A stretch of DNA of 64,000 nucleotides from Patescibacteria group bacterium (GTDB taxonomy: Bacteria; Patescibacteriota; Patescibacteriia; 2-01-FULL-39-33). The stretch covers positions 56,034 to 120,033 of the forward strand of contig JBAZRV010000003.1 of assembly GCA_041662745.1 (NCBI GenBank), in the 5' to 3' direction. This document shows positions 6,548 through 41,027 of this stretch, piece by piece (the first letter of the stretch is position 1; each line of letters starts with the position of its first letter). Below the pieces are notes generated by a model. The model did no database searches. It was not told where the DNA came from and saw only the letters and a list, made by a program, of their open reading frames with translations. A program made the position numbers and the translations under genes.

Positions 6548-8920
6548 ATGAATTTAAATATCTCTTACAACTGGCTAAAGTCGTATGTCAAAACCAGTTT
6601 GACACCGCAAGAATTTGCTAAACGGATCTCGCTTTCCGGACCATCGGTTGACCGCATTAATGCCATCAAACCGAATTTCAGCAAGGTAGTCGTCGGGCAA
6701 ATCAAAAAAATAGAACAGCATCCCAATGCCGACAAGCTTCATGTTTGCAAGGTTAATATTGGCAAAGAAGAATTGCAAATAGTTTGTGGCGCGCCAAATA
6801 TTAAAGAAGGTCAAAAAGTGCCGGTAGTTTTGGTTGGCGGTCAAGTCGGTGAGTTTGAAATCAAAGAAGCCAAATTAAGAGGCGTAGAAAGCTTTGGTAT
6901 GATGTGCTCTCAAAAAGAATTAGGGTTAGGCGAGGATCACACCGGAATTTATATTTTGCCGGCAGATGCCAAAGTTGGCGAGCCGTTAGAGAAAATCATG
7001 CCCATGGATGATGCGATTTTGGATATTGAAATCACTTCCAACCGCCCGGATGCCATGAGCGTTATCGGCATCGCCAGAGAAGCGTCAGCAATTTTGGACG
7101 CTAAGTTTTTATATCAAGCCCCTAAGCCTAATTTGGCTGTCAAAGGCGGTAAAAAGGATTTAAAGATTAAGGTGGCTGAAGAAAAATTTTGCCCTCGGTA
7201 TTCCGCTATTGTTATGGGGGAAGTCAAAGTTGAGGCCTCGCCCTTATGGATGCAACAGCGGCTGCTCGCTTCCGGCTTGCGTCCGATCAATAATCTGGTG
7301 GATATCACTAATTATATTTTATTGGAATACGGCCAGCCGATGCATGTGTTTGATTATGATAAATTATCAGGCGCGGAGATTAATGTCCGCAAAGCCAAAA
7401 AAGGCGAGAAGATTTTGGCGCTGGACGGCAAGGAATATGAATTGTTAACTGATCAATTGGTGATTGCGGATGCTAAGGTCCCGGTCGCTGTCGCCGGTGT
7501 CATGGGCGGAGAATTGTCGGCCGCCACAACAGAAACCAAAACCATTGTGTTTGAATGCGCTAATTTTAATCCGGTTTCAGTCAGGAAGACTTCCAGAGCC
7601 CTGAATTTGCGTTCTGAGAGCTCGGCGCTTTATGAGAAGGGAATCAGTCCGGAAAATGTTATCGCCTCAATGTTGCGCGCCATAGAGCTGGCGCAGGAAT
7701 TGTGCGGCGCCAAAATCGCCGGTAGATTAATTGATGAGAAGTCATATAAAATTAAAGATAAGGAAATTGTTTTGGATTTGGATAGTGTTAATTCCGCTTT
7801 GGGTGTTAAAATCAAACCAGCAGAAATCAAAAAGAATTTAGAAGCTTTAGGTTTTAAAGTTTCTTCCACCAAGTCCAAGCGCGATGAATTTATGGTGGTT
7901 GTGCCGTGGTGGCGGGAAAATGATATTGACGGCCAGCATGATTTAATTGAGGAAATCGCTCGCATGCACGGTTATTATAATCTGCCAACTGAGCTTATGT
8001 CTGGCGCTTTGCCAAAAGCCGCCAGCAGCATTAATTTTGGTTTAGAAGATAAAATCAAGGATGTTTTGGTTGGTTTTGGTTTAACCGAAGTTTATACTTA
8101 CTCTTTCATCTCTGAAAAACAAATAACCGCCTGCGGTTTAAAGCCGGAGGATCATATTAAAATCGCCAATCCCTTAAGTGTTGATTTTGAGTACATGCGG
8201 ATTTCACTCTTGCCGGGAGTTTTGCAAATTATTGCTGAAAACGAAGGTTTTTATCCGGCTGGAAAATTGTTTGATTTCAGCCAGGTTTATTTGCCGTTAG
8301 GCGCAAACGATTTAGCCGATGAAAAATTTAAATTATTAATCGCTTGCTATGGCGCTGAAATCAATAAAGTCGCCGGTGATGTCAGGGGATTATTGGATGG
8401 TTTAATGCAACGGCTTTATATTTCCGGTTTGGTTTTTAAAAATACTGCTGATGGCTCAGAGATTTATGTTGGTGATAATAAATTGGGCGAGATCAAAGTC
8501 ATTAATAATAAAATTTTATCCGCTTTCGGCATTAAGAAAGCAGTAACAATCGTAGAATTGGATTTTGAAGCTGTTAGTAAATCAGCCAAGTCCGCGCCGA
8601 CTTACCAGCCGATTCCTAAATTTCCGGCGATTGAACTAGACTTGTCAATGGAAATTGATAATGTCGTGACTTTTGCCGAGGTGGCTAATATCGCGACTGA
8701 CGCCGGCCTGCCTGCCGGTCAGGCAGGCGCGCCATTGGTAGAGAGAGTTGATTTTTTATCAGTATACAGAGGTAATGATTTGCCGGAAGGTAAAAAAGCT
8801 TTAGCGATTAGAATCGTTTATCGTGACTTGAACAAGACGCTGGAATTAGCTGAAGCGCAAAAAGCGCATGATAAAGTTGTAGCGGAATTAAAAAAGAGTT
8901 ATAATATAAGTGTAAGATAA
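6548..8920 (+). CDS. pheT: phenylalanine--tRNA ligase beta subunit
   Basis: 790 aa; N-terminal tRNA-binding (EMAP-like) domain, B3/4, B5, core and anticodon-binding domains; follows pheS. Confidence 0.93.
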   Translation: MNLNISYNWLKSYVKTSLTPQEFAKRISLSGPSVDRINAIKPNFSKVVVGQIKKIEQHPNADKLHVCKVNIGKEELQIVCGAPNIKEGQKVPVVLVGGQVGEFEIKEAKLRGVESFGMMCSQKELGLGEDHTGIYILPADAKVGEPLEKIMPMDDAILDIEITSNRPDAMSVIGIAREASAILDAKFLYQAPKPNLAVKGGKKDLKIKVAEEKFCPRYSAIVMGEVKVEASPLWMQQRLLASGLRPINNLVDITNYILLEYGQPMHVFDYDKLSGAEINVRKAKKGEKILALDGKEYELLTDQLVIADAKVPVAVAGVMGGELSAATTETKTIVFECANFNPVSVRKTSRALNLRSESSALYEKGISPENVIASMLRAIELAQELCGAKIAGRLIDEKSYKIKDKEIVLDLDSVNSALGVKIKPAEIKKNLEALGFKVSSTKSKRDEFMVVVPWWRENDIDGQHDLIEEIARMHGYYNLPTELMSGALPKAASSINFGLEDKIKDVLVGFGLTEVYTYSFISEKQITACGLKPEDHIKIANPLSVDFEYMRISLLPGVLQIIAENEGFYPAGKLFDFSQVYLPLGANDLADEKFKLLIACYGAEINKVAGDVRGLLDGLMQRLYISGLVFKNTADGSEIYVGDNKLGEIKVINNKILSAFGIKKAVTIVELDFEAVSKSAKSAPTYQPIPKFPAIELDLSMEIDNVVTFAEVANIATDAGLPAGQAGAPLVERVDFLSVYRGNDLPEGKKALAIRIVYRDLNKTLELAEAQKAHDKVVAELKKSYNISVR

Positions 8921-8935
8921 AATAATTATATTCCC

Positions 8936-9244
8936 ATGCTTGTCACATCAAAAGACCTATTCTGGGTCGTGTTATCGTTTGTTATTCTCTTTGGCGGTAT
9001 TTGCACCAGCTTCGCTATTTTTTACTTCGCCATGATTCTACGCGACGGCTGGTACATCACCAAGGCCATCAGGCGCAAGGTGGAAGCGGTAGAAAAAGTC
9101 ATGACCGCTTTCAAGTCTAAAGTGGAAAACACCGCCAGCTATGTGCCGCCGTTAATTGACGGCGTGTCCAAATTGGTTGAAGCCATAGCCGAAAAGAAAA
9201 GATCTTCGGCCGCCAAAACCGGCAAAAAATCAAAAAGAAAGTAA
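8936..9244 (+). CDS. hypothetical small membrane protein (102 aa) with K-rich tail
   Basis: ORF with one N-terminal TM. Confidence 0.45.
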   Translation: MLVTSKDLFWVVLSFVILFGGICTSFAIFYFAMILRDGWYITKAIRRKVEAVEKVMTAFKSKVENTASYVPPLIDGVSKLVEAIAEKKRSSAAKTGKKSKRK

Positions 9245-22521: not shown

Positions 22522-23940
22522 ATGAAGTTGAAAAAACTCTTTATTTTTGCATTCTGTTTTGTCTTTACCGCTTTAATCGCCGTTAACGCTCGGGCGGCGG
22601 ATTTTACCGCCGATTATTTGATTTCCGACGTTGAAATGAATGACTATAGCGCTATGGATTTAAGCGACATTCAGCGTTTTTTGGAAAAACGCGACGGCAC
22701 TTTGGAGACTTATATTACCTTTGACAAGGAAGGCAATCCTAAGACGGCGGTTCAGACATTTTTTGAAACTTCTCGTAATTGGCAGATCAATCCTAAATAT
22801 CTGTTGGTTTTGGTGCAAAAAGAACAAAGCCTATTGGATGACCCCAATCCCTCGCAGAAACAATATGACTGGGCGACCGGTTACGGGGTTTGCGATAGTT
22901 GCTCTATGGACGATCCTAATATTCAGCGTTTCAGGGGGTTCTATCGCCAAGTCAATTCCGCTGCCGCTCAGACGCGATATTACATGGACAACATTAAGGA
23001 ATTTTCTTTTCAGCCGGGCAAAACCTATAACATTGACGGCCAGACCGTTACGATGAAAAACACAGCCACTGCCGGCTTGTTCAACTATACCCCGCATATC
23101 CATGGAAATCAGCTGTTCTGGAATTTATGGAATAAATATTTTGGCAAATCTTGGCCGGACGGCAGTTTGTTGCAAGTTGAAGATGGCGGTCAGATATACT
23201 ACATTGAAAACGGAGTTAAGCGTTTAATCGCCTCTAAGGCCGTGTTCGCTTCGCGTTTCAATAATAATAGCATCCTGACGGTTAGTCAAAGCGATTTAGA
23301 TACTTATGATGATGGCGCGCCGATTAAATATTTGAATTTTTCCATTTTGCAGAGCACGACTACCGGCGAGATGTATATGATCATTAATGATGTTAAACGT
23401 CGCATTGTCAGTGACGCTGTTTTTAAGAAATTAGGCTTTAGCGATGATGATTTGGCAAAGGTTATTGATTCTGAGTTACAATTATATAAGGCTGGCCCGG
23501 ATATTACCGAATATACTGTTTATCCGACCGGTATTTTGTTGCAGGACAGTAAAGCCAAAATCGCCGACGCCGGCATATATTATGTCATCAGCGGTGAAAA
23601 AAAACCCGTATTAACCAAAGAAATAATGGCGGCTAATTTCCCCGGCATGACCGTCAAGAAAGTTCCTAGCGTAGAATTGGACAAGTATATGCCCGGCTCT
23701 AATGTAACTTTGCCCGACGGTTTATTGGTCAAGATAAATCCTAAAGCTCTAAAAGTCAAAACCAAGGAAGCGCTCGCCGCCGCCAGTACGGTCTATGTTA
23801 TTTCTCATGGCAAGCGTTTGCCTATCATTTCTGGCGCAGTATTCAAACAAATGGGGTATAGCAGCAAGAACATCAAGATCATTTCCGAAGCCACTCTTAA
23901 TGCCCATGATTTAGGCCCCTTCATTACCGGGCAACAGTAA
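22522..23940 (+). CDS. hypothetical secreted protein (472 aa, signal peptide)
   Basis: MKLKKLFIFAFCFVFTALIAVNARA signal peptide. Confidence 0.55.
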   Translation: MKLKKLFIFAFCFVFTALIAVNARAADFTADYLISDVEMNDYSAMDLSDIQRFLEKRDGTLETYITFDKEGNPKTAVQTFFETSRNWQINPKYLLVLVQKEQSLLDDPNPSQKQYDWATGYGVCDSCSMDDPNIQRFRGFYRQVNSAAAQTRYYMDNIKEFSFQPGKTYNIDGQTVTMKNTATAGLFNYTPHIHGNQLFWNLWNKYFGKSWPDGSLLQVEDGGQIYYIENGVKRLIASKAVFASRFNNNSILTVSQSDLDTYDDGAPIKYLNFSILQSTTTGEMYMIINDVKRRIVSDAVFKKLGFSDDDLAKVIDSELQLYKAGPDITEYTVYPTGILLQDSKAKIADAGIYYVISGEKKPVLTKEIMAANFPGMTVKKVPSVELDKYMPGSNVTLPDGLLVKINPKALKVKTKEALAAASTVYVISHGKRLPIISGAVFKQMGYSSKNIKIISEATLNAHDLGPFITGQQ

Positions 23941-23950
23941 TCATAAATAT

Positions 23951-24742
23951 ATGTCACTCGTATTTGCAGCCATTACGCCACATCCGCCGATTTTAATACC
24001 GGCTATCGGCAAGGACAATATCAAACAAATTGAGAAAACAAAATCGGCCATGGAAAAGCTGGAAGAAGAGCTGTATTCGGCTAAACCTGATATTGTCATG
24101 ATTATTTCGCCTCACGGCGAGATGAGCGCCGATTCTTTTACGGTAAACTTAAGCAACGATTATGAAGTTAATTTTGAGTCATTCGGAGATTTTACCACTA
24201 AATTGCAATTCAAGGGTGAGACCGTTTTAATGACTATGGGCAAAGAAAAGATTGCCGCTAAATCGCCTTTGAATATTATTTCTGAATCAGCGCTTGATCA
24301 TGGAGCGGGCGTTCCCTTATTTTATCTGATGCGGCATCTGCCGCAGGTGCCGATTATTCCCTTATCGTTTTCTATGCTGGATAATCAGGCGCATGTGGAG
24401 TTCGGCAAGGGTCTGAAAGAGCTTATCTTAAATACCGATAAACGCGTGGCTGTTATTGCTTCTGGCGATTTATCTCATTGTTTGACTAAAAACGCTCCCG
24501 TGCCCTATAACCCGGCCGGTAATGATTTTGATCAGACGCTAATTGAGTTGGTTAAGAAATGCGATACGCAAGGCATCACTAACATTGATCATAAGTTAGT
24601 CAGTGATGCGGCGGAATGCGGTCTGCGTTCTATCTTGATATTATCCGGCATTATCAGCGATATGAAGTGTCAGCCGGAGGTTTTGAGTTATGAGGGTCCG
24701 TTCGGCGTGGGCTATCTGGTAGCCGAAGTAAAATTTGATTAG
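23951..24742 (+). CDS. LigB-family / class III extradiol dioxygenase subunit B-like protein
   Basis: N-terminal ITPHPPILIP motif, conserved His residues (SPHGEM, DLSHCL) typical of the family. Confidence 0.5.
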   Translation: MSLVFAAITPHPPILIPAIGKDNIKQIEKTKSAMEKLEEELYSAKPDIVMIISPHGEMSADSFTVNLSNDYEVNFESFGDFTTKLQFKGETVLMTMGKEKIAAKSPLNIISESALDHGAGVPLFYLMRHLPQVPIIPLSFSMLDNQAHVEFGKGLKELILNTDKRVAVIASGDLSHCLTKNAPVPYNPAGNDFDQTLIELVKKCDTQGITNIDHKLVSDAAECGLRSILILSGIISDMKCQPEVLSYEGPFGVGYLVAEVKFD

Positions 24743-29123: not shown

Positions 29124-29249
29124 ATTTGTTTGTTTTGATATTTACTTAACTATTTTAGCTCAATTGGCGTCTTTTGTCAAGGTGGTTGGCGGGAAGATAA
29201 AAAAAGAGCGTTTTTTGTCCGAATTGGAGCAAAAAACGCCCAAAATGTG

Positions 29250-30443
29250 CTAACGAACCATTGATAATTTAACATCCGAACGAACGGTGTGGCGGTAGCT
29301 CACGCTATATCGTTTTCGCAAATACTCATCCAAAATATTGCAACATTCTTGGTAGTGCCTCTCCCACTCCCTAATTTTTTGGGCGCTGAATTTTTCCGGA
29401 TCTTTGCCTTCTCGCAAAGCTTTGGCCTTAAGCCGGGCAAGAGTCGGGCCGTAAGGCTTTAGGGGGCCGATATGGACGCGCAAAGCGAAGTTCTCAATAT
29501 GTCTTTCAATCATCTCTAGCCATTTTTTCAAGCTGGCCGGATTCGGATTGTACATTTGCGGGAAAATATCCAGCCCTGCTTCCACTAATGTGCGCAGACA
29601 GAAAACCTGATCGGAAATAGTGGCGTTGGCTTGGACATTGTCTTGCAGATTGGCATTGTCCGTACCCTTAATGGCGGCTAAGACTTTAACCGGAAAAACT
29701 GCCAGATGACGGTAATAATCAATCGGCCACAAATGAGGCGTGGAGAGATTGGTGTCCACTTGTCCGACCATATCCTCTCCCCGTTCTTCAATTCGGCGCC
29801 AGAGTTTGATAATCCAGTCCAGCACTACGGTCGGCTCGCCGCCGGAAACGCGCAGGACTTTAATATTCAGATCAATCCCGGTTTGTTTTTTGTAAATTTC
29901 CCGCACCTTATCCCGAGCCATTAAGAAGCTGTCAATAACATCGTCAACCTCAACCAGCCATTTATTTCCGGTTTGACGCAGGCCGTCATTGAGTTTGTTA
30001 TCCACAAAACAGTAGAGACAACCGCCGTCGCAGGTTCCGGAATGGAAATTGCAGCCGGCGACCTGGAGGATAAATGGCGCATTATAATCTAAGGCGCGGG
30101 ACAATTCATAGCCTGCGATATGCTTGTACCACAAGGCAAAATCAAATTCTTGCTGCTTGAGATAGTCTTCAATTACTCCCGGAGACATCTTGCCGATGTC
30201 AATGAAGTCCTTGCCGTAAGCCTTGGCCGCCAAGGGATCAACATCTTTGGCATTGAATTTGAACCGGAAAACGCGTCGGCCGTCCCGGTTAGGCATCAGG
30301 TCTATAACCTTGCTTGTGTCTTGGCCTTGCAGCGAATCGGAAAAATCCGCTACCAGTAGCCGTCCCCCCGGCGTGATTACGGTTTGGCGCAAGGCGGTGG
30401 CGCGATCTAATGGACTTTGGACATACGACGGATTTTTAGACAT
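29250..30443 (-). CDS. radical SAM protein, uncharacterised subfamily (397 aa)
   Basis: cluster motif C-D-G-G-C-L-Y-C (Cx3Cx2C) preceded by extra Cys (CNFHSGTC); SAM-binding VSGGEPTV; ~130-aa N-terminal extension; overlaps upstream ORF by 8 nt. Confidence 0.7.
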   Translation of the reverse strand: MSKNPSYVQSPLDRATALRQTVITPGGRLLVADFSDSLQGQDTSKVIDLMPNRDGRRVFRFKFNAKDVDPLAAKAYGKDFIDIGKMSPGVIEDYLKQQEFDFALWYKHIAGYELSRALDYNAPFILQVAGCNFHSGTCDGGCLYCFVDNKLNDGLRQTGNKWLVEVDDVIDSFLMARDKVREIYKKQTGIDLNIKVLRVSGGEPTVVLDWIIKLWRRIEERGEDMVGQVDTNLSTPHLWPIDYYRHLAVFPVKVLAAIKGTDNANLQDNVQANATISDQVFCLRTLVEAGLDIFPQMYNPNPASLKKWLEMIERHIENFALRVHIGPLKPYGPTLARLKAKALREGKDPEKFSAQKIREWERHYQECCNILDEYLRKRYSVSYRHTVRSDVKLSMVR

Positions 30444-30900
30444 AATGCTTTTCTCCCTCCTTTAAGAGTTTTGCGAATTCTTCAGCTAGGACTTGCAATT
30501 TTTGTTTGTCTTCCTCTGTCAGTCCGGCCAGAATCTGTTCTCCTCGGAAATGCAATTTTTGTAACAAAATGTAGGCTGATTTAGCGGCGATGTTGATTTC
30601 AGTTATCAATTCGGCAACTTCCATGCACCACAAAGCAGTACCTACTGAATCCTCATACCAATCGCCGGTATTTCCGCAATAACGGTAAAATCGGCAATCC
30701 CGGAAGAAAACAGCAAAAGCTTTCTGCTTGCTTAATTCTTTTAGGATATTGCATATCCTGCCTATGCGATTATCAATGATAATCTGACAATCGATTAGGC
30801 GGCTGATCAGTCCGGGTCCCGAGAGATGGAAAATTACGATGAGCAAATTTAGCATGTCAAGTTTTCCAGCCGGTGTTCGGTTGCGCGCTGTTGTCGGCAT
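30436..30900 (-). CDS. hypothetical protein (154 aa) translationally coupled to radical SAM gene
   Basis: ATG at 30900 with GGGAGG 8 nt upstream; overlaps downstream gene; several Cys (DCQ, RIC, DCRFYRYC, LWC). Confidence 0.55.
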   Translation of the reverse strand: MPTTARNRTPAGKLDMLNLLIVIFHLSGPGLISRLIDCQIIIDNRIGRICNILKELSKQKAFAVFFRDCRFYRYCGNTGDWYEDSVGTALWCMEVAELITEINIAAKSAYILLQKLHFRGEQILAGLTEEDKQKLQVLAEEFAKLLKEGEKHYV

Positions 30901-30957
30901 ATCTGTTACCTCCCTCGGTTATCGCTGGCTTATTAAGTTTTAATGTTCGGTTGAGTT

Positions 30958-30986
30958 ATCTTACTATATTGGGGGAGAAATGTCAA
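30958..30986 (-). promoter_or_regulatory. sigma70-like promoter for the 154-aa/radical-SAM operon: -35 TTGACA (plus 30981-30986), 17-nt spacer, -10 TAAGAT (plus 30958-30963)
   Basis: read on minus strand; located between secF terminator and operon RBS. Confidence 0.4.
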
Positions 30987-31026
30987 ATAAAAAATATCCT
31001 CGCAAACCTGCTTTGCGAGGATATTG
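30986..31026 (-). terminator. intrinsic terminator for secF: atatcctcgcaaa-cctg-ctttgcgaggatat + T-run on minus strand
   Basis: 13-bp perfect stem; A-run on plus = U-run on minus. Confidence 0.75.
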
Positions 31027-37985: not shown

Positions 37986-39359
37986 TCAGCTGTTGGGCCA
38001 GTACTTGCCGACTGGCCATTCGGCGATAGAAACATTGTCAATCATGACGCCGGCTTCGCTTAAACGCAATTGCGTGTTTGCGGAGATGACGTCAATAATG
38101 TGTTTCTTATGTTGCGCCAGTTCTTCCGACATGCCGGCCAGGATGCTGCCAGCGCTTGCTATTCCCGGATTGGCGAAAATAGAACAGGTTGTTTCCGTCG
38201 GCAAGCATTCGGTTAGCGCCACTATCGTCTCTCTTCTGACAACATCAGTGAGATATTCCTCAAGCCCTTCCTGTTGATGAAAGGTTTGAAGGTTTTTCAG
38301 ATAGCTTTCATTGCTGAGCAGAGTGTAGCCAACAGCCAATCTCAACTCATTCCCGTCAAGTGACGCTTCAACCGCTAAACCGTCTTTGGCGGCGGCGATG
38401 CCCCGAGTGTACTTTTTGGCGAATAAATTTACAAAGCGATGATCATAGGCCAGCAGCGTATCCTTATCATCAATGGCAAAACGTTTGTAAAATTCTCCGT
38501 CGGATCGGTTAATAAGGATAATTGAACTGTTTTTGCTTAATAAATATGACGGAGTTTTAAAAGTAAACAAAGTTGACACGACAAGGGCTGTGATAAAGAA
38601 TGCCATGATTACTGGTTTATCGTGTTTGTAAGTTGAGGTATCATGCACTATCGTAGCCGCTATTATCGCCGGTACCATAACGCAGGTAAATATGAACATT
38701 ACCGCAATAACCGCGTTCGGCAAGAAAATTACCGACAAGTAATACAGATAGACTGTCATGGCGACGGCGGCAATGATTATGCTGCAAGGTATCATAAATA
38801 CCGTAACGATATCTGTCAGATCATCGCCGTGTTCGCAGAACCAATTTTTTGTCCCCTTGGCTATTCGGACAAAACCGCAGAACAACCAGCCCAGGATTAG
38901 ACTGACCGGACTGATGATCTTCTTTAATGTTTGTATCTTTTTGTTGGGCGGTTTTAGCAGGATCCTGGCCTGCGACAAACTGACGATCCTGTTGGATATC
39001 AGTGAGATGATCAGTTTTTTATATTGCGAGTTTAAGGTCGGCAGGAATTCCGGTTGCCAGTCCATTCCCGTGGCTAAGCGGAATAATGTGAGACCCAGCT
39101 GATGGAAGGCTTCGCGTACGTCCTTGACCGGAGTTGTCGAGCCGTAATCGACTTTATTATTATCATCAATAAAAATATTTCCCGCTTCATACTTCACCAA
39201 TTCCCCTTTTTCTTTCAGACGCGCTTCCAGATCCTCCAGCAGTTCCGAGGCGATGGCATATAACAGACCATCTCCTAATTTGATTTCGTAGCGTTTTTTC
39301 ATGGTCACGTTCTCCTTTATGGTTGCGGTAACTGTTGTTTTGGTTAATTTTAAGGCCAA
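37986..39359 (-). CDS. membrane protein with N-terminal degenerate Ser/Thr-kinase C-lobe-like domain (457 aa); paralog of next gene
   Basis: N-terminal ...LVKYEAGNIFIDDNNKVDYGST...HQLGLTLFRLATG... resembles kinase subdomains VIb-IX (HRDLKPENILI..VKLADFG / DxWSLGxxLYExxTG) without N-lobe; then ~6 TM; shared architecture with 39480..41027. Confidence 0.5.
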   Translation of the reverse strand: MALKLTKTTVTATIKENVTMKKRYEIKLGDGLLYAIASELLEDLEARLKEKGELVKYEAGNIFIDDNNKVDYGSTTPVKDVREAFHQLGLTLFRLATGMDWQPEFLPTLNSQYKKLIISLISNRIVSLSQARILLKPPNKKIQTLKKIISPVSLILGWLFCGFVRIAKGTKNWFCEHGDDLTDIVTVFMIPCSIIIAAVAMTVYLYYLSVIFLPNAVIAVMFIFTCVMVPAIIAATIVHDTSTYKHDKPVIMAFFITALVVSTLFTFKTPSYLLSKNSSIILINRSDGEFYKRFAIDDKDTLLAYDHRFVNLFAKKYTRGIAAAKDGLAVEASLDGNELRLAVGYTLLSNESYLKNLQTFHQQEGLEEYLTDVVRRETIVALTECLPTETTCSIFANPGIASAGSILAGMSEELAQHKKHIIDVISANTQLRLSEAGVMIDNVSIAEWPVGKYWPNS

Positions 39360-39479: not shown

Positions 39480-41027
39480 TTATTCAGTTTCCTGTTCGGC
39501 CGTTACTTTGGCCGGCGGATTGGCCGGCTGGGATGGCGTTTGCTTTTCAGCCGTTTCTCCCGGCTTTTTCGGCTCTTTGACTTCAATGTAGTTATACTGA
39601 TTCTTGAATTGTTGGCGCAATTGGCCTTGAATATTGTCCATGATTTGCCGGCGTTGTTTATCAATGACGGCCTGCTGACGCGACAACAGTTCGTTTCTGA
39701 CTAGGCGGACGGTAAGCTCGCGCAGGACCTGATAATCATTTTTTGACAGCGTGCCGTCCGCGCCCTTAGCTTCAACGGTTATTTCTTTAAGCTCCTGCTC
39801 AATTGCCAGGCGGGACTTAATGGGGACAACGCTTTCAGCTAGAGCTTTTTGAACCGCGACTTGACCGGCGTTAATCAGCTCTTGTTCTAGATCGGCTTGC
39901 GTTTGCTTATTCTCCGTCATCCGTTTCCAGTCGCTTTCAAATGTCGCCTGGTCGGTGATGGCATACTTGATCCAGAAGCAGAACTTTTCTCCGTTTTTAT
40001 CCTTATCCAGCGGCGCTTCCACCGGGATGCCTTCATGCTGAATGAGTATGCCCGGCGCATAGCTTTTGGTGAATAAATTGACATACGCAGCTTCGTAATG
40101 CGGGATGTAATGTTTATCTTCGCCGTCGGCGATTCGGCCGATCAGGTTTCCGCTGGAGCGATCAATTACTACTAAGGGAGGACAAAAGCCAGTCGTTGGA
40201 GTCTCAAAGATTTCATAAATTGAAAGCGAGGCAATCAGGATTAAAAAGGCAATCCAGCCCCTGAAGATGCAATCATCCTCCCGCAGATCGGTGAGCATGG
40301 CTGATATCACAGTTATTATGACCCCTAAAAAGAAGGAGAAAAATACAATTAGAAAACCGCAAATTACAGCCATAGCGATACTAAAATAAATAGCATTAAC
40401 AGAAGCCAGGCAAATGAACGAAGCGCCGGCGATGATAATCAGCATTACGTGGGCGATAAGCGAAAATTTACGTTTTATAAACCTCAGCAGTTTCAACAGT
40501 TTGGCCGCTGTTTTTTTTGTTTGCGGATAAATATTGCCAGCTTGAGCTCCCAGCCGTTTAAAAGCTGAGACCGCTCCCTGGCCGATCAGCGTAATCAGCC
40601 AGCAGAGCGGGTTTAACAGCAATTTGGTTTTACGTGCCAGCTTTTTGATTCGGCTGGGTCGGATCAGGAGTTCTTCCACTTGCTTGAAGTTGACCGCTTG
40701 GCCGGATAGCAATAATTCCACTAACGGCCAGAGGTCAGAGTCAAACGGTTCATAGCCGGCATCGGCGGCGCGCAGGGCTGAATCGTTTATTTCCGATTTG
40801 CCCGTGGCCACATGATACAAGGTAACGCCTAAATAATAGAGCGCTTCGCGAATATTTTTGATCTGCGAAGTCGGCAGGGTGTCGCAGACAACCTTTCGGC
40901 TGTCATTGATGAATACCGTATCCGGGTCAAAACGCAATACGACGTCGTTGTTTGCCGCTTCGCGCAACCTGTTAGTCAGGGTTTGGGCGATAAGAAAAAG
41001 ATCTTCTTCCCGTTGCCAGGTTCTCAT
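39480..41027 (-). CDS. membrane protein with N-terminal degenerate Ser/Thr-kinase C-lobe-like domain (515 aa); paralog
   Basis: ...VVLRFDPDTVFINDSRKVVCDT...ALYYLGVTLYHVATGKSE...PLVELLLSG... aligns to kinase catalytic-loop/subdomain IX-XI; TM block; C-terminal coiled coil and Q/P-rich tail. Confidence 0.5.
   Translation of the reverse strand: MRTWQREEDLFLIAQTLTNRLREAANNDVVLRFDPDTVFINDSRKVVCDTLPTSQIKNIREALYYLGVTLYHVATGKSEINDSALRAADAGYEPFDSDLWPLVELLLSGQAVNFKQVEELLIRPSRIKKLARKTKLLLNPLCWLITLIGQGAVSAFKRLGAQAGNIYPQTKKTAAKLLKLLRFIKRKFSLIAHVMLIIIAGASFICLASVNAIYFSIAMAVICGFLIVFFSFFLGVIITVISAMLTDLREDDCIFRGWIAFLILIASLSIYEIFETPTTGFCPPLVVIDRSSGNLIGRIADGEDKHYIPHYEAAYVNLFTKSYAPGILIQHEGIPVEAPLDKDKNGEKFCFWIKYAITDQATFESDWKRMTENKQTQADLEQELINAGQVAVQKALAESVVPIKSRLAIEQELKEITVEAKGADGTLSKNDYQVLRELTVRLVRNELLSRQQAVIDKQRRQIMDNIQGQLRQQFKNQYNYIEVKEPKKPGETAEKQTPSQPANPPAKVTAEQETE

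What the first reader, a model, noticed from the sequence alone, without database searches (positions are those of the whole stretch)
29250..30986. Self-contained operon: 154-aa Cys-containing protein translationally coupled to an atypical 397-aa radical SAM enzyme
The operon has its own TTGACA-17-TAAGAT promoter and a GGGAGG RBS. The 154-aa ORF overlaps the radical SAM gene by 8 nt (ATG inside the stop region). The radical SAM protein has the canonical CDGGCLYC cluster motif preceded by an extra Cys (CNFHSGTC), a GGE SAM motif, a ~130-aa N-terminal domain and a ~200-aa C-terminal domain. I cannot place it in the common CPR radical SAM families (RlmN, MiaB/RimO, QueE, NrdG). The small partner (DCRFYRYCGNTGDWYED ... 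LWC) could be a substrate or carrier, or a cluster or nucleotide-binding subunit. It sits between the secDF terminator and rplU, not in a metabolic context. This tight two-gene module is my best candidate for an undescribed modification system (RNA, protein or small-molecule).
Basis: partly seen in the sequence, partly recalled or inferred. Interest (0 to 1): 0.62.

Follow-up and report, generated by a model that had tools for sequence, protein, structure and literature searches.

The report
Archaeal-type radical SAM enzyme, orphan partner
A Patescibacteria bacterium carries a real but unstudied radical SAM enzyme, of a family otherwise found almost only in DPANN archaea, inserted beside a fast-evolving small gene. 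The two genes are co-transcribed but are not a conserved pair, so this is an uncharacterised enzyme family rather than a new two-gene modification system.

Summary
The described sequence features are real. There are two overlapping minus-strand genes (154 aa and 397 aa, 8-nt overlap). They have their own conserved promoter-like element and Shine-Dalgarno sites, and a terminator on each side.

The family-wide cluster ligands are C131, C142 and C145 (CX10CX2C).

The two-gene module is not conserved. The rSAM stands alone, with variable neighbours, in all archaeal loci and in a second Patescibacteria lineage. The small protein is an orphan. A divergent homolog of it sits in the same secF–rplU slot of a related contig that has no rSAM. 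About nine related lineages have secF–rplU with no rSAM. No Gly and only one Cys of the small protein is conserved.

The substrate is unknown. A remote bacterial sister family lies in a conserved mobile cassette. Interest is moderate to low.

The parts
30993..31025 (-). Intrinsic terminator of the upstream secD-secF unit, which bounds the pair on its 5' side
   Evidence: 14-bp stem followed by a T-run. The stem keeps its pairing through sequence changes in L008 and L001.
30958..30986 (-). Promoter-like element TTGACA-17-TAAGAT for the two-gene unit
   Evidence: 10 of 12 consensus positions match. The element is identical in the window, L008 and L001, although dS in the flanking genes is about 0.9.
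30901..30957 (-). 5' leader including the SD GAGGGAGG (30909..30916). It is unusually conserved but unstructured.
   Evidence: Conservation shown in the alignment. No Rfam match. Folding z-score -0.29.
30436..30900 (-). 154-aa clade-restricted orphan protein, basic (pI about 8.8) and predicted all-helical
   Evidence: Four close homologs only. An exhaustive HMMER search of 1.84e9 representatives found only its own cluster. dN/dS is 0.22-0.25. The AF2 model is poor, pLDDT 48.7. A divergent homolog lies in L049 without an rSAM.
30453..30462 (-). Internal SD (AAGGAGGGAG) for the rSAM gene, inside the 3' end of the small ORF. The stop/start overlap is at 30436..30443.
   Evidence: Read directly. 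The same 8-nt overlap occurs in L001, L008, L009 and L010.
29250..30443 (-). 397-aa radical SAM enzyme of an unnamed DPANN-type family with a PFL-activase-like core
30084..30443 (-). Family-specific N-terminal domain (residues 1-120) with invariant R60, K62, N64, K66, D69, F100, D101, W105 and K107
   Evidence: Alignment A2. No Pfam, PDB or Rfam-type match. Modelled confidently.
30009..30053 (-). Cluster-binding loop C131-X10-C142-X2-C145 (GCNFHSGTCDGGCLYC), carrying a conserved 7-residue insertion and the clade-specific C138
   Evidence: Residue counts over 67 sequences. hhalign to the sister family's CAWRCWYC leaves a 7-residue gap.
29835..29843 (-). GGE motif (G201-G202-E203), the SAM amino-group contact
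   Evidence: Present in 66 of 67 sequences. It lies in the SGGEP block of A2.
29206..29241 (-). Terminator hairpin plus U-run after the rSAM stop codon. The rplU promoter-like site follows at 29180..29152.
   Evidence: dG -19.3 kcal/mol, z = -4.3, no shuffle of 200 folds as well. rplU promoter-like site.

Best explanation
The 397-aa gene encodes a stand-alone radical SAM enzyme of an uncharacterised family that is typical of DPANN archaea (Woesearchaeota/Nanoarchaeota). A small Patescibacteria lineage acquired it by horizontal transfer, and it was inserted into the conserved secF-rplU intergenic slot.

What is shown. The core is a PFL-activase-like partial barrel with a family-specific N-terminal domain and a C-terminal helical extension. 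The family-wide Cys triad is C131/C142/C145 (CX10CX2C), a conserved 7-residue insertion variant of the CX3CX2C found in its sister family. The protein has GGE and D-x-N-L-S-T SAM-site motifs and no auxiliary-cluster cysteines. No partner gene is conserved.

What is inferred. The enzyme binds one [4Fe-4S] cluster, cleaves SAM to a 5'-deoxyadenosyl radical and abstracts a hydrogen from a substrate encoded elsewhere. Because the core is activase-like, that substrate is most plausibly a protein or another macromolecule, docked by the extra N- and C-terminal parts.

The 154-aa gene is a real, fast-evolving, lineage-restricted gene that was (or became) resident at this slot and is now translationally coupled to the enzyme. 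It is most likely a non-essential, lineage-specific accessory (adaptor, stabiliser or regulator), not the enzyme's universal cognate substrate.
For: Family and taxonomy: 152 homologs at about 45-55% identity, almost all archaeal or unnamed. Of 34 genome loci, 31 are archaeal and 3 are bacterial-labelled. The Patescibacteria copies form one branch among the archaeal ones.

Insertion: about nine related lineages have secD-secF-rplU-GT2 without the rSAM. The pair occurs only where SecF is at least 87% identical to the window's.

Cys triad. hhalign to the sister family gives probability 98.6% and places a 7-residue gap at the insertion.

No conserved partner: neighbour clustering. In the Pfam census the most common family is found in 4 of 141 neighbours. 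Only the window clade has an overlapping upstream ORF. L024 lacks the orphan.

Orphan status of the small gene. It is under purifying selection. A homolog occurs without the rSAM in L049: hhalign probability 90.4%, E 1.4e-6, and BLASTP E 1e-5 to 3e-4.
Against: The substrate and reaction are entirely inferred, and no context or family match constrains them. The translational coupling and the very conserved promoter and leader show that the two genes are expressed together in this clade, so a functional interaction cannot be excluded. The tree is NJ without support values, so the direction of transfer rests mainly on the taxon counts. The L049 evidence comes from one 2.4-kb metagenome contig at 25-33% identity. 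Loss of the rSAM in that lineage, rather than later insertion, is equally possible. The family looks sporadic within DPANN, which fits an accessory role better than a housekeeping one.
Confidence: 0.6

Rival explanations
1. One reading: a dedicated two-gene modification system in which the 154-aa protein is the substrate, carrier or subunit of the radical SAM enzyme.
For: An 8-nt stop/start overlap with an internal SD is conserved in all four genomes that carry the pair. They share a conserved promoter. The small gene is under purifying selection. The enzyme's closest structural relative acts on proteins.
Against: The rSAM is alone in all archaeal loci and in L024. A homolog of the small gene exists without the rSAM. 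No Gly and only one Cys (C69) is invariant across the five small-protein homologs. The enzyme is highly conserved between carriers and non-carriers of the orphan, which implies a shared substrate that is not the orphan.
Confidence: 0.12
2. A non-canonical glycyl-radical-enzyme activase (an NrdG or PflA analogue) that activates a glycyl radical enzyme encoded elsewhere in the genome.
For: The fold is clearly closest to PFL-AE. The best, though insignificant, NCBIfam hits are activases: YjjW and NrdG2. JGI annotators called some members activases. The organisms are anaerobes with reduced genomes (background knowledge).
Against: No glycyl radical enzyme gene lies next to it in about 37 loci or anywhere in the 64-kb window. 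The activase DGxGxR motif is replaced by D-[YF]-N-x-P-F. All activase models score far below their cutoffs. The extra 120-aa N-terminal domain and the CX10CX2C loop are unknown in activases. The sister family sits in cassettes without a glycyl radical enzyme.
Confidence: 0.12
3. A nucleotide- or nucleic-acid-modifying enzyme with a conflict or defence role, following viperin-like logic, that spreads as a single gene by horizontal transfer.
For: The distribution is sporadic and cross-domain, with variable neighbourhoods. Some neighbours are defence-type: a full-length LmuB-like ATPase (E 6e-36) plus NUDIX directly downstream in one sub-clade, MNT/HepT in L024, and one restriction-modification pair. 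The remote sister family lies in a conserved mobile cassette with an XRE/M78 regulator, ASCH and an AAA_18 kinase-like gene, next to restriction-modification, VapBC and integrase genes.
Against: Only about 10 of 141 neighbours hit PADLOC models, and four of these come from one sub-clade. The viperin models hit only at noise level. No homolog was found on viral contigs or in phage records. In the window the gene sits among housekeeping genes. The family is unusually well conserved for a defence gene. The sister family is only about 25% identical, so its function may differ.
Confidence: 0.15
4. The small protein is an unrelated resident gene, for example a small DNA-binding or regulatory protein. 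It merely shares a transcript with the inserted enzyme and has no physical or functional link to it.
For: The secF-rplU slot carries different small ORFs in different lineages. A homolog occurs without the rSAM. The protein is basic and predicted helical.
Against: The precise 8-nt coupling and internal SD are conserved. No HTH or other family is detectable. The structure model is too poor to assign a fold.
Confidence: 0.2

Closest known systems
Pyruvate formate-lyase activating enzyme and other glycyl-radical-enzyme activases (PDB 3c8f, 3cb8)
   Different: Identity is only 16%. The family-wide motif is CX10CX2C rather than CX3CX2C. There is no DGxGxR motif. The protein has an extra 120-aa N-terminal domain and a C-terminal helical extension. 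No glycyl radical enzyme lies nearby. All activase HMMs score far below cutoff.
7-carboxy-7-deazaguanine synthase QueE, including the Burkholderia multivorans CX14CX2C form (PDB 5tgs, 4njg)
   Different: No QueE model is hit. There is no preQ0-pathway context. The insertion differs in length and sequence. The N-terminal domain is absent from QueE.
Unnamed ~343-aa radical SAM family of Rhizobiales and other bacteria (e.g. WP_216761042.1), found in the DUF6932 - XRE/M78 - DUF4186 - rSAM - 444 aa - ASCH - AAA_18 - DUF763 cassette
   Same: It is the closest sequence relative outside the family: hhalign probability 98.6%, E 5e-16, over the core and C-terminal region. It shares the CWYCFV, SGGxP, DxNLST and FKG motifs. 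A small gene also overlaps its start upstream.
   Different: It has a canonical CX3CX2C motif and a shorter N-terminus whose similarity is not significant. It is embedded in a conserved multi-gene mobile cassette, whereas the target is stand-alone. Its upstream partner DUF4186 is unrelated to the 154-aa orphan (probability 0.3%). It is itself uncharacterised.
Prokaryotic viperins (pVip)
   Same: Both are single-cluster radical SAM enzymes that spread sporadically across bacteria and archaea as single genes. Noise-level HMM hits were seen.

Membership tests
Radical SAM superfamily | Three-Cys site for a [4Fe-4S] cluster at the start of a (beta/alpha) partial barrel | tested here: met
Radical SAM superfamily | SAM-binding motifs (GGE and the ribose motif) | tested here: met
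   G201-G202-E203 are present in 66 of 67 sequences, D230 in 67 of 67 and N232 in 66 of 67. PF04055 matches residues 134-293 at 28.6 bits, just under the 29.5-bit gathering score.
Radical SAM superfamily | Reductive cleavage of SAM to a 5'-deoxyadenosyl radical | not testable with these tools
   Needs anaerobic reconstitution and a 5'-deoxyadenosine assay.
Glycyl-radical-enzyme activases (PflA, NrdG, YjjW etc.) | Score above the curated cutoff of an activase model | tested here: not met
   YjjW scores 15.9 bits against a 250-bit cutoff, and NrdG2 12.2 bits against 131.
Glycyl-radical-enzyme activases (PflA, NrdG, YjjW etc.) | N-terminal CX3CX2C preceded by the DGxGxR substrate-loop motif | tested here: not met
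   The family-wide motif is CX10CX2C. The equivalent upstream position carries D-[YF]-N-x-P-F. The activase motif itself is recalled from background knowledge.
Glycyl-radical-enzyme activases (PflA, NrdG, YjjW etc.) | A cognate glycyl radical enzyme, usually adjacent | tested here: not met
   None is found among 141 neighbours in about 37 loci or among the window's large ORFs. Whole-genome presence could not be tested.
Glycyl-radical-enzyme activases (PflA, NrdG, YjjW etc.) | Activase-type compact barrel fold | tested here: met
QueE | Match to a QueE model and a preQ0-pathway context | tested here: not met
   No QueE model is hit at E<=1. The QueC-domain hits in 3 neighbours are ThiI/PP-loop proteins, not QueC.
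Prokaryotic viperin | Match to the viperin models NF038283 or PADLOC pVip | tested here: not met
   14.4 bits against a 180-bit cutoff. PADLOC pVip E 0.0078.
AmmeMemoRadiSam radical SAM (TIGR04337) | Match to the family model and linkage to AMMECR1/Memo genes | tested here: not met
   No hit at E<=1. A LigB/Memo-like gene lies 4.5 kb away in the window, but no such linkage is seen in the archaeal loci.
SPASM/twitch RiPP maturases | Auxiliary Cys-rich C-terminal domain and a short precursor peptide | tested here: not met
   There are no further conserved cysteines; the median is 5 Cys per protein and only 3 are conserved. There is no SPASM hit. The partner is 154 aa with one conserved Cys.
Conserved two-gene system (small protein + rSAM) | Co-occurrence of both genes across carriers | tested here: not met
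   The rSAM occurs without the small gene in archaea and in L024. The small gene occurs without the rSAM in L049.

The most novel reading that the evidence does not exclude
The DPANN-type family, probably together with its bacterial sister cassette, is a new functional class of activase-like radical SAM enzymes that does not activate glycyl radical enzymes. Its conserved His-containing insertion in the cluster loop and its novel N-terminal domain would give it a new substrate class, either a protein side chain or a nucleotide/nucleic acid. In the window's Patescibacteria clade the co-translated orphan would have been recruited as a dedicated adaptor or substrate after cross-domain transfer.
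Probability: 0.12. Interest if true: 0.7.

Novelty: new variant of a known kind. Interest (0 to 1): 0.35.

Why it matters
If the family's chemistry were worked out, it would add a functionally new branch next to the glycyl-radical activases. It would also give a second natural example, after one QueE form, of a long insertion inside the radical SAM cluster motif, here with a conserved His. Evolutionarily it is a clean case of a DPANN-type gene fixed in a Patescibacteria lineage at a defined insertion site, and of a young orphan gene becoming translationally coupled to an acquired enzyme. Uncharacterised radical SAM families are very numerous, however, and nothing here yet points to a specific new reaction. 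The two-gene system that motivated the finding does not hold up.

Tried and rejected
- Curated libraries (Pfam, NCBIfam, PADLOC, PHROGs) and PDB sequence or profile searches gave no family for either protein.
- The afdb50 fold library was unavailable.
- A fold search of the small protein was not attempted because its model is unreliable (pLDDT 48.7).
- tRNA adjacency, suggested by L004, is sporadic: 7 of 37 loci scanned hold any tRNA gene.
- Conserved-neighbour search: none found by clustering, by Pfam or by PADLOC census.
- Viral origin: no relatives on viral contigs, in phage records or in BFVD beyond generic radical SAM hits.
- The orphan as a divergent DUF4186, the upstream partner in the sister cassette: rejected, hhalign probability 0.3%.
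- The orphan against the 153-aa ORF upstream of the L027 rSAM: unrelated.
- N-terminal domain homology between the target and sister families: not significant, E 0.038.
- The AmmeMemoRadiSam idea: the nearby gene is LigB-like (131 bits) rather than Memo, and no linkage is seen in archaea.
- Base composition gives no transfer signal.
- pI is uninformative about substrate class.
- The sister cassette's partners have no solved relatives.
- Literature searches for the family, the motif and the cassette DUFs found nothing relevant.
- Rfam and folding of the conserved leader found nothing.
- Source names for the closest homologs gave no organisms.
Full report
**Observation.** The region holds two minus-strand ORFs. 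One of 154 aa lies at 30436..30900 and one of 397 aa at 29250..30443. They overlap by 8 nt (ATGTCTAA). Upstream are the secF terminator hairpin (31025..30993) and a TTGACA-17-TAAGAT element (30986..30958). GAGGGAGG precedes the first ATG by 8 nt, and AAGGAGGGAG precedes the second ATG from inside the small ORF. After the rSAM stop codon there is a strong hairpin at 29206..29241 (-19.3 kcal/mol, z = -4.3) followed by a U-run, and then the rplU promoter-like site. Consensus promoter matches are no more frequent here than in shuffles. However, this element and the whole leader are nearly identical in the three genomes that carry the pair, even though synonymous divergence in the adjacent genes is about 0.9. 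Both ORFs are under purifying selection: dN/dS is 0.22-0.25 for the small ORF and 0.07-0.11 for the rSAM, against 0.03-0.06 for rplU and secF. The self-contained, translationally coupled operon is therefore real.

**The enzyme.** No curated model claims the 397-aa protein. PF04055 scores 28.6 bits, just below its 29.5-bit cutoff. The best NCBIfam hit is the YjjW activase at 15.9 bits against a cutoff of 250. PADLOC pVip gives E 0.0078. PHROGs and PDB sequence or profile searches give nothing. A homology search found 152 proteins of about 400 aa. Apart from three or four near-identical Patescibacteria sequences, they are 45-55% identical to the query and are named, where named at all, as Woesearchaeota, Nanoarchaeota or "archaeon". 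Among GTDB species genomes, 34 loci were recovered: 31 archaeal, two Patescibacteria, and one distant copy on a 1.8-kb contig labelled Saccharibacteria. The alignment shows strong conservation along the whole length, including a 120-aa N-terminal domain.

**Cluster motif.** The invariant cysteines are C131, C142 and C145, giving a CX10CX2C spacing. Over 67 sequences they are present in 67, 66 and 67, whereas C138 is present in only 6, four of which are the window's own clade. The inserted loop is itself conserved: N132, F133, H134, G136, G140 and G141. A remote bacterial sister family has CAWRCWYC at this position and aligns with a 7-residue gap. This independently identifies C131 as the first ligand. 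In this clade both spacings are present, and only mutagenesis can say which is used. GGE (201-203) and D230-x-N232 are conserved. No further cysteines are conserved, so there is no auxiliary cluster and no SPASM domain.

**The partner.** The 154-aa protein has only three relatives, all in the same syntenic Patescibacteria clade. An exhaustive HMMER search of 1.84 billion representatives found nothing beyond its own cluster. It matches no family and no solved structure. Its AF2 model is unreliable (pLDDT 48.7, all-helical).

**Co-conservation.** In the window's clade the order secD-secF-small-rSAM-rplU-GT2 is fixed. Elsewhere the rSAM stands alone.

- tblastn with the orphan finds only the syntenic loci.
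- Clustering of flanking ORFs finds no recurrent neighbour.
- The commonest Pfam family occurs in 4 of 141 neighbours.
- Only the window clade has an overlapping upstream ORF.
- The second Patescibacteria carrier, L024 (52% identical), has the gene between gyrB and an MNT/HepT pair followed by aspS, with no orphan.

Conversely, loci anchored on SecF show that about nine related lineages (SecF 66-74% identical) have secD-secF-rplU-GT2 with no rSAM. Five of them have only 70-118 nt between secF and rplU. Four have a gap of 560-772 nt holding small ORFs.

The 139-aa ORF in the L049 gap is a divergent homolog of the orphan. hhalign gives probability 90.4%, E 1.4e-6 and 33% identity over 83 columns. 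BLASTP against each of the four orphans gives E 1e-5 to 3e-4. It has the same MPT start, the same position and the same strand. It is followed after 97 nt by rplU, so there is no room for an rSAM gene. With L049 included, the small protein keeps one Cys (C69), no Gly, and a D80-W81 and KLH signature. There is no conserved glycyl-radical-type or multi-Cys site.

**Origin.** In an NJ tree the window clade and L024 form a single branch set against the broad archaeal radiation (no support values). Together with the taxon counts and the defined insertion site, this suggests an archaea-to-Patescibacteria transfer. Base composition shows no recent-transfer signal. No relatives were found on viral contigs or in phage records.

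**Functional leads.** Nothing decisive was found. There is no glycyl radical enzyme next to the gene in any locus or in the window, whose large ORFs are mainly aminoacyl-tRNA synthetases, a UvrD/PD-(D/E)XK helicase-nuclease and polysaccharide-biosynthesis genes. Defence-type neighbours are a minority, about 10 of 141. They include a full-length LmuB-like ATPase plus NUDIX directly downstream in one sub-clade, MNT/HepT, and one restriction-modification pair.

The most informative relative is an unnamed family of about 343 aa with at least 2,675 members, many from Rhizobiales. It is homologous over the core and C-terminal region (hhalign probability 98.6%, E 5e-16). It sits in a conserved co-directional cassette: DUF6932 - XRE/M78 - DUF4186 - rSAM - 444 aa - 167 aa/ASCH - AAA_18 - (DUF763). 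The cassette's surroundings vary and look mobile or defence-like (VapBC, integrase, restriction-modification, ParB-like genes). That cassette is itself uncharacterised. Its upstream partner DUF4186 is unrelated to the orphan. The N-terminal similarity between the two families is not significant.

**Conclusion.** The best-supported reading has three parts.

- The enzyme is a stand-alone, single-cluster radical SAM enzyme with an activase-like core and a CX10CX2C loop. It belongs to an undescribed DPANN-type family and was horizontally acquired.
- It is now coupled to a resident, fast-evolving orphan gene.
- It presumably generates a 5'-deoxyadenosyl radical and abstracts a hydrogen from a substrate encoded elsewhere.

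The last part is inference, and the substrate is unknown. The rivals are an orphan-as-substrate system, a non-canonical glycyl-radical activase and a viperin-like conflict enzyme; each keeps roughly 0.1-0.15. The finding is a new variant within a well-known superfamily. It is of moderate interest for its unusual cluster motif and its cross-domain history, but it is not the new two-gene modification system proposed.

Noticed in passing
window 30901..30957 (minus strand): The ~57-nt 5' leader of the pair is almost identical in three genomes whose coding regions have dS of about 0.9. It has no Rfam match and no stable fold (z = -0.29). The reason for this conservation is unexplained.
   Followed up: partly
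window 23951..24742 (+) and 22522..23940 (+): A 263-aa LigB-type protein (PF02900, 131 bits) also passes the low cutoff of TIGR04336, AmmeMemoRadiSam system protein B (37.6 bits against 26). It follows, after 10 nt, a 472-aa ORF with no Pfam or NCBIfam hit. It lies about 4.5 kb from the rSAM and is syntenic in L001 and L008. No such linkage is seen in the archaeal loci.
   Followed up: partly
L044 3230..10325; L045, L046, L047 4505..10339: A conserved, apparently mobile cassette in Rhizobiales and other bacteria: DUF6932 (PADLOC PDC-M63A) - XRE/Peptidase_M78 - DUF4186 (Cys/His-rich) - radical SAM (CX3CX2C, at least 2,675 homologs) - 444 aa - 167 aa/ASCH - AAA_18 - DUF763. It lies next to restriction-modification, VapBC, integrase or ParB-like genes. 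I found no description of it in the held literature. It is a candidate modification or defence system.
   Followed up: partly
L002 6260..8741; also L013, L014, L021: In one archaeal sub-clade the rSAM is followed on the same strand, after 2-65 nt, by a 688-707-aa SMC-like ATPase that matches Lamassu LmuB over its full length (E 6e-36 to 2e-39). In L002 a NUDIX protein (PADLOC PDC-S07) comes next. No LmuA-type effector is evident.
   Followed up: partly
L042 5145..5534 and 6949..9036: The divergent Woesearchaeota rSAM copy (35% identical) is followed after 1 nt by a DUF1284 protein (E 7e-8). About 1.8 kb downstream is an ATP-cone ribonucleotide reductase large subunit (PF02867).
   Followed up: no
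L049 1473..1892; L057 1674..2075; L051 4419..4787; L054 4624..4929: The secF-rplU intergenic slot in this Patescibacteria group holds different small ORFs of 101-139 aa in different lineages, and is only 70-118 nt long in others. The L051 and L054 ORFs are related to each other (E 2e-15) but not demonstrably to the orphan. The slot looks like a hot spot for young genes.
   Followed up: partly
L001 1094..2464 (minus strand): The Buchananbacteria relative has a 456-aa radical SAM/SPASM gene directly upstream of secD. This gene is absent from that position in the window and in L008, where GAPDH precedes secD.
   Followed up: no
window 37986..39359 (-) and 39480..41027 (-): Two adjacent large ORFs (457 aa and 515 aa) have no Pfam or NCBIfam hit.
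   Followed up: no
L004 4838..4914; L019 3817..3893: A tRNA-Lys(CTT) gene lies on the opposite strand within about 90 nt upstream of the archaeal rSAM gene in two related loci. tRNA adjacency is not general: only 7 of 37 loci scanned hold any tRNA gene.
   Followed up: yes
window protein residues 236-247 (window ~29700..29740, minus strand): The Patescibacteria copies (the window clade and L024) and a few archaeal ones lack a segment of about 9 residues after the DTNLST motif that most archaeal members have. The window clade also gained C138.
   Followed up: no
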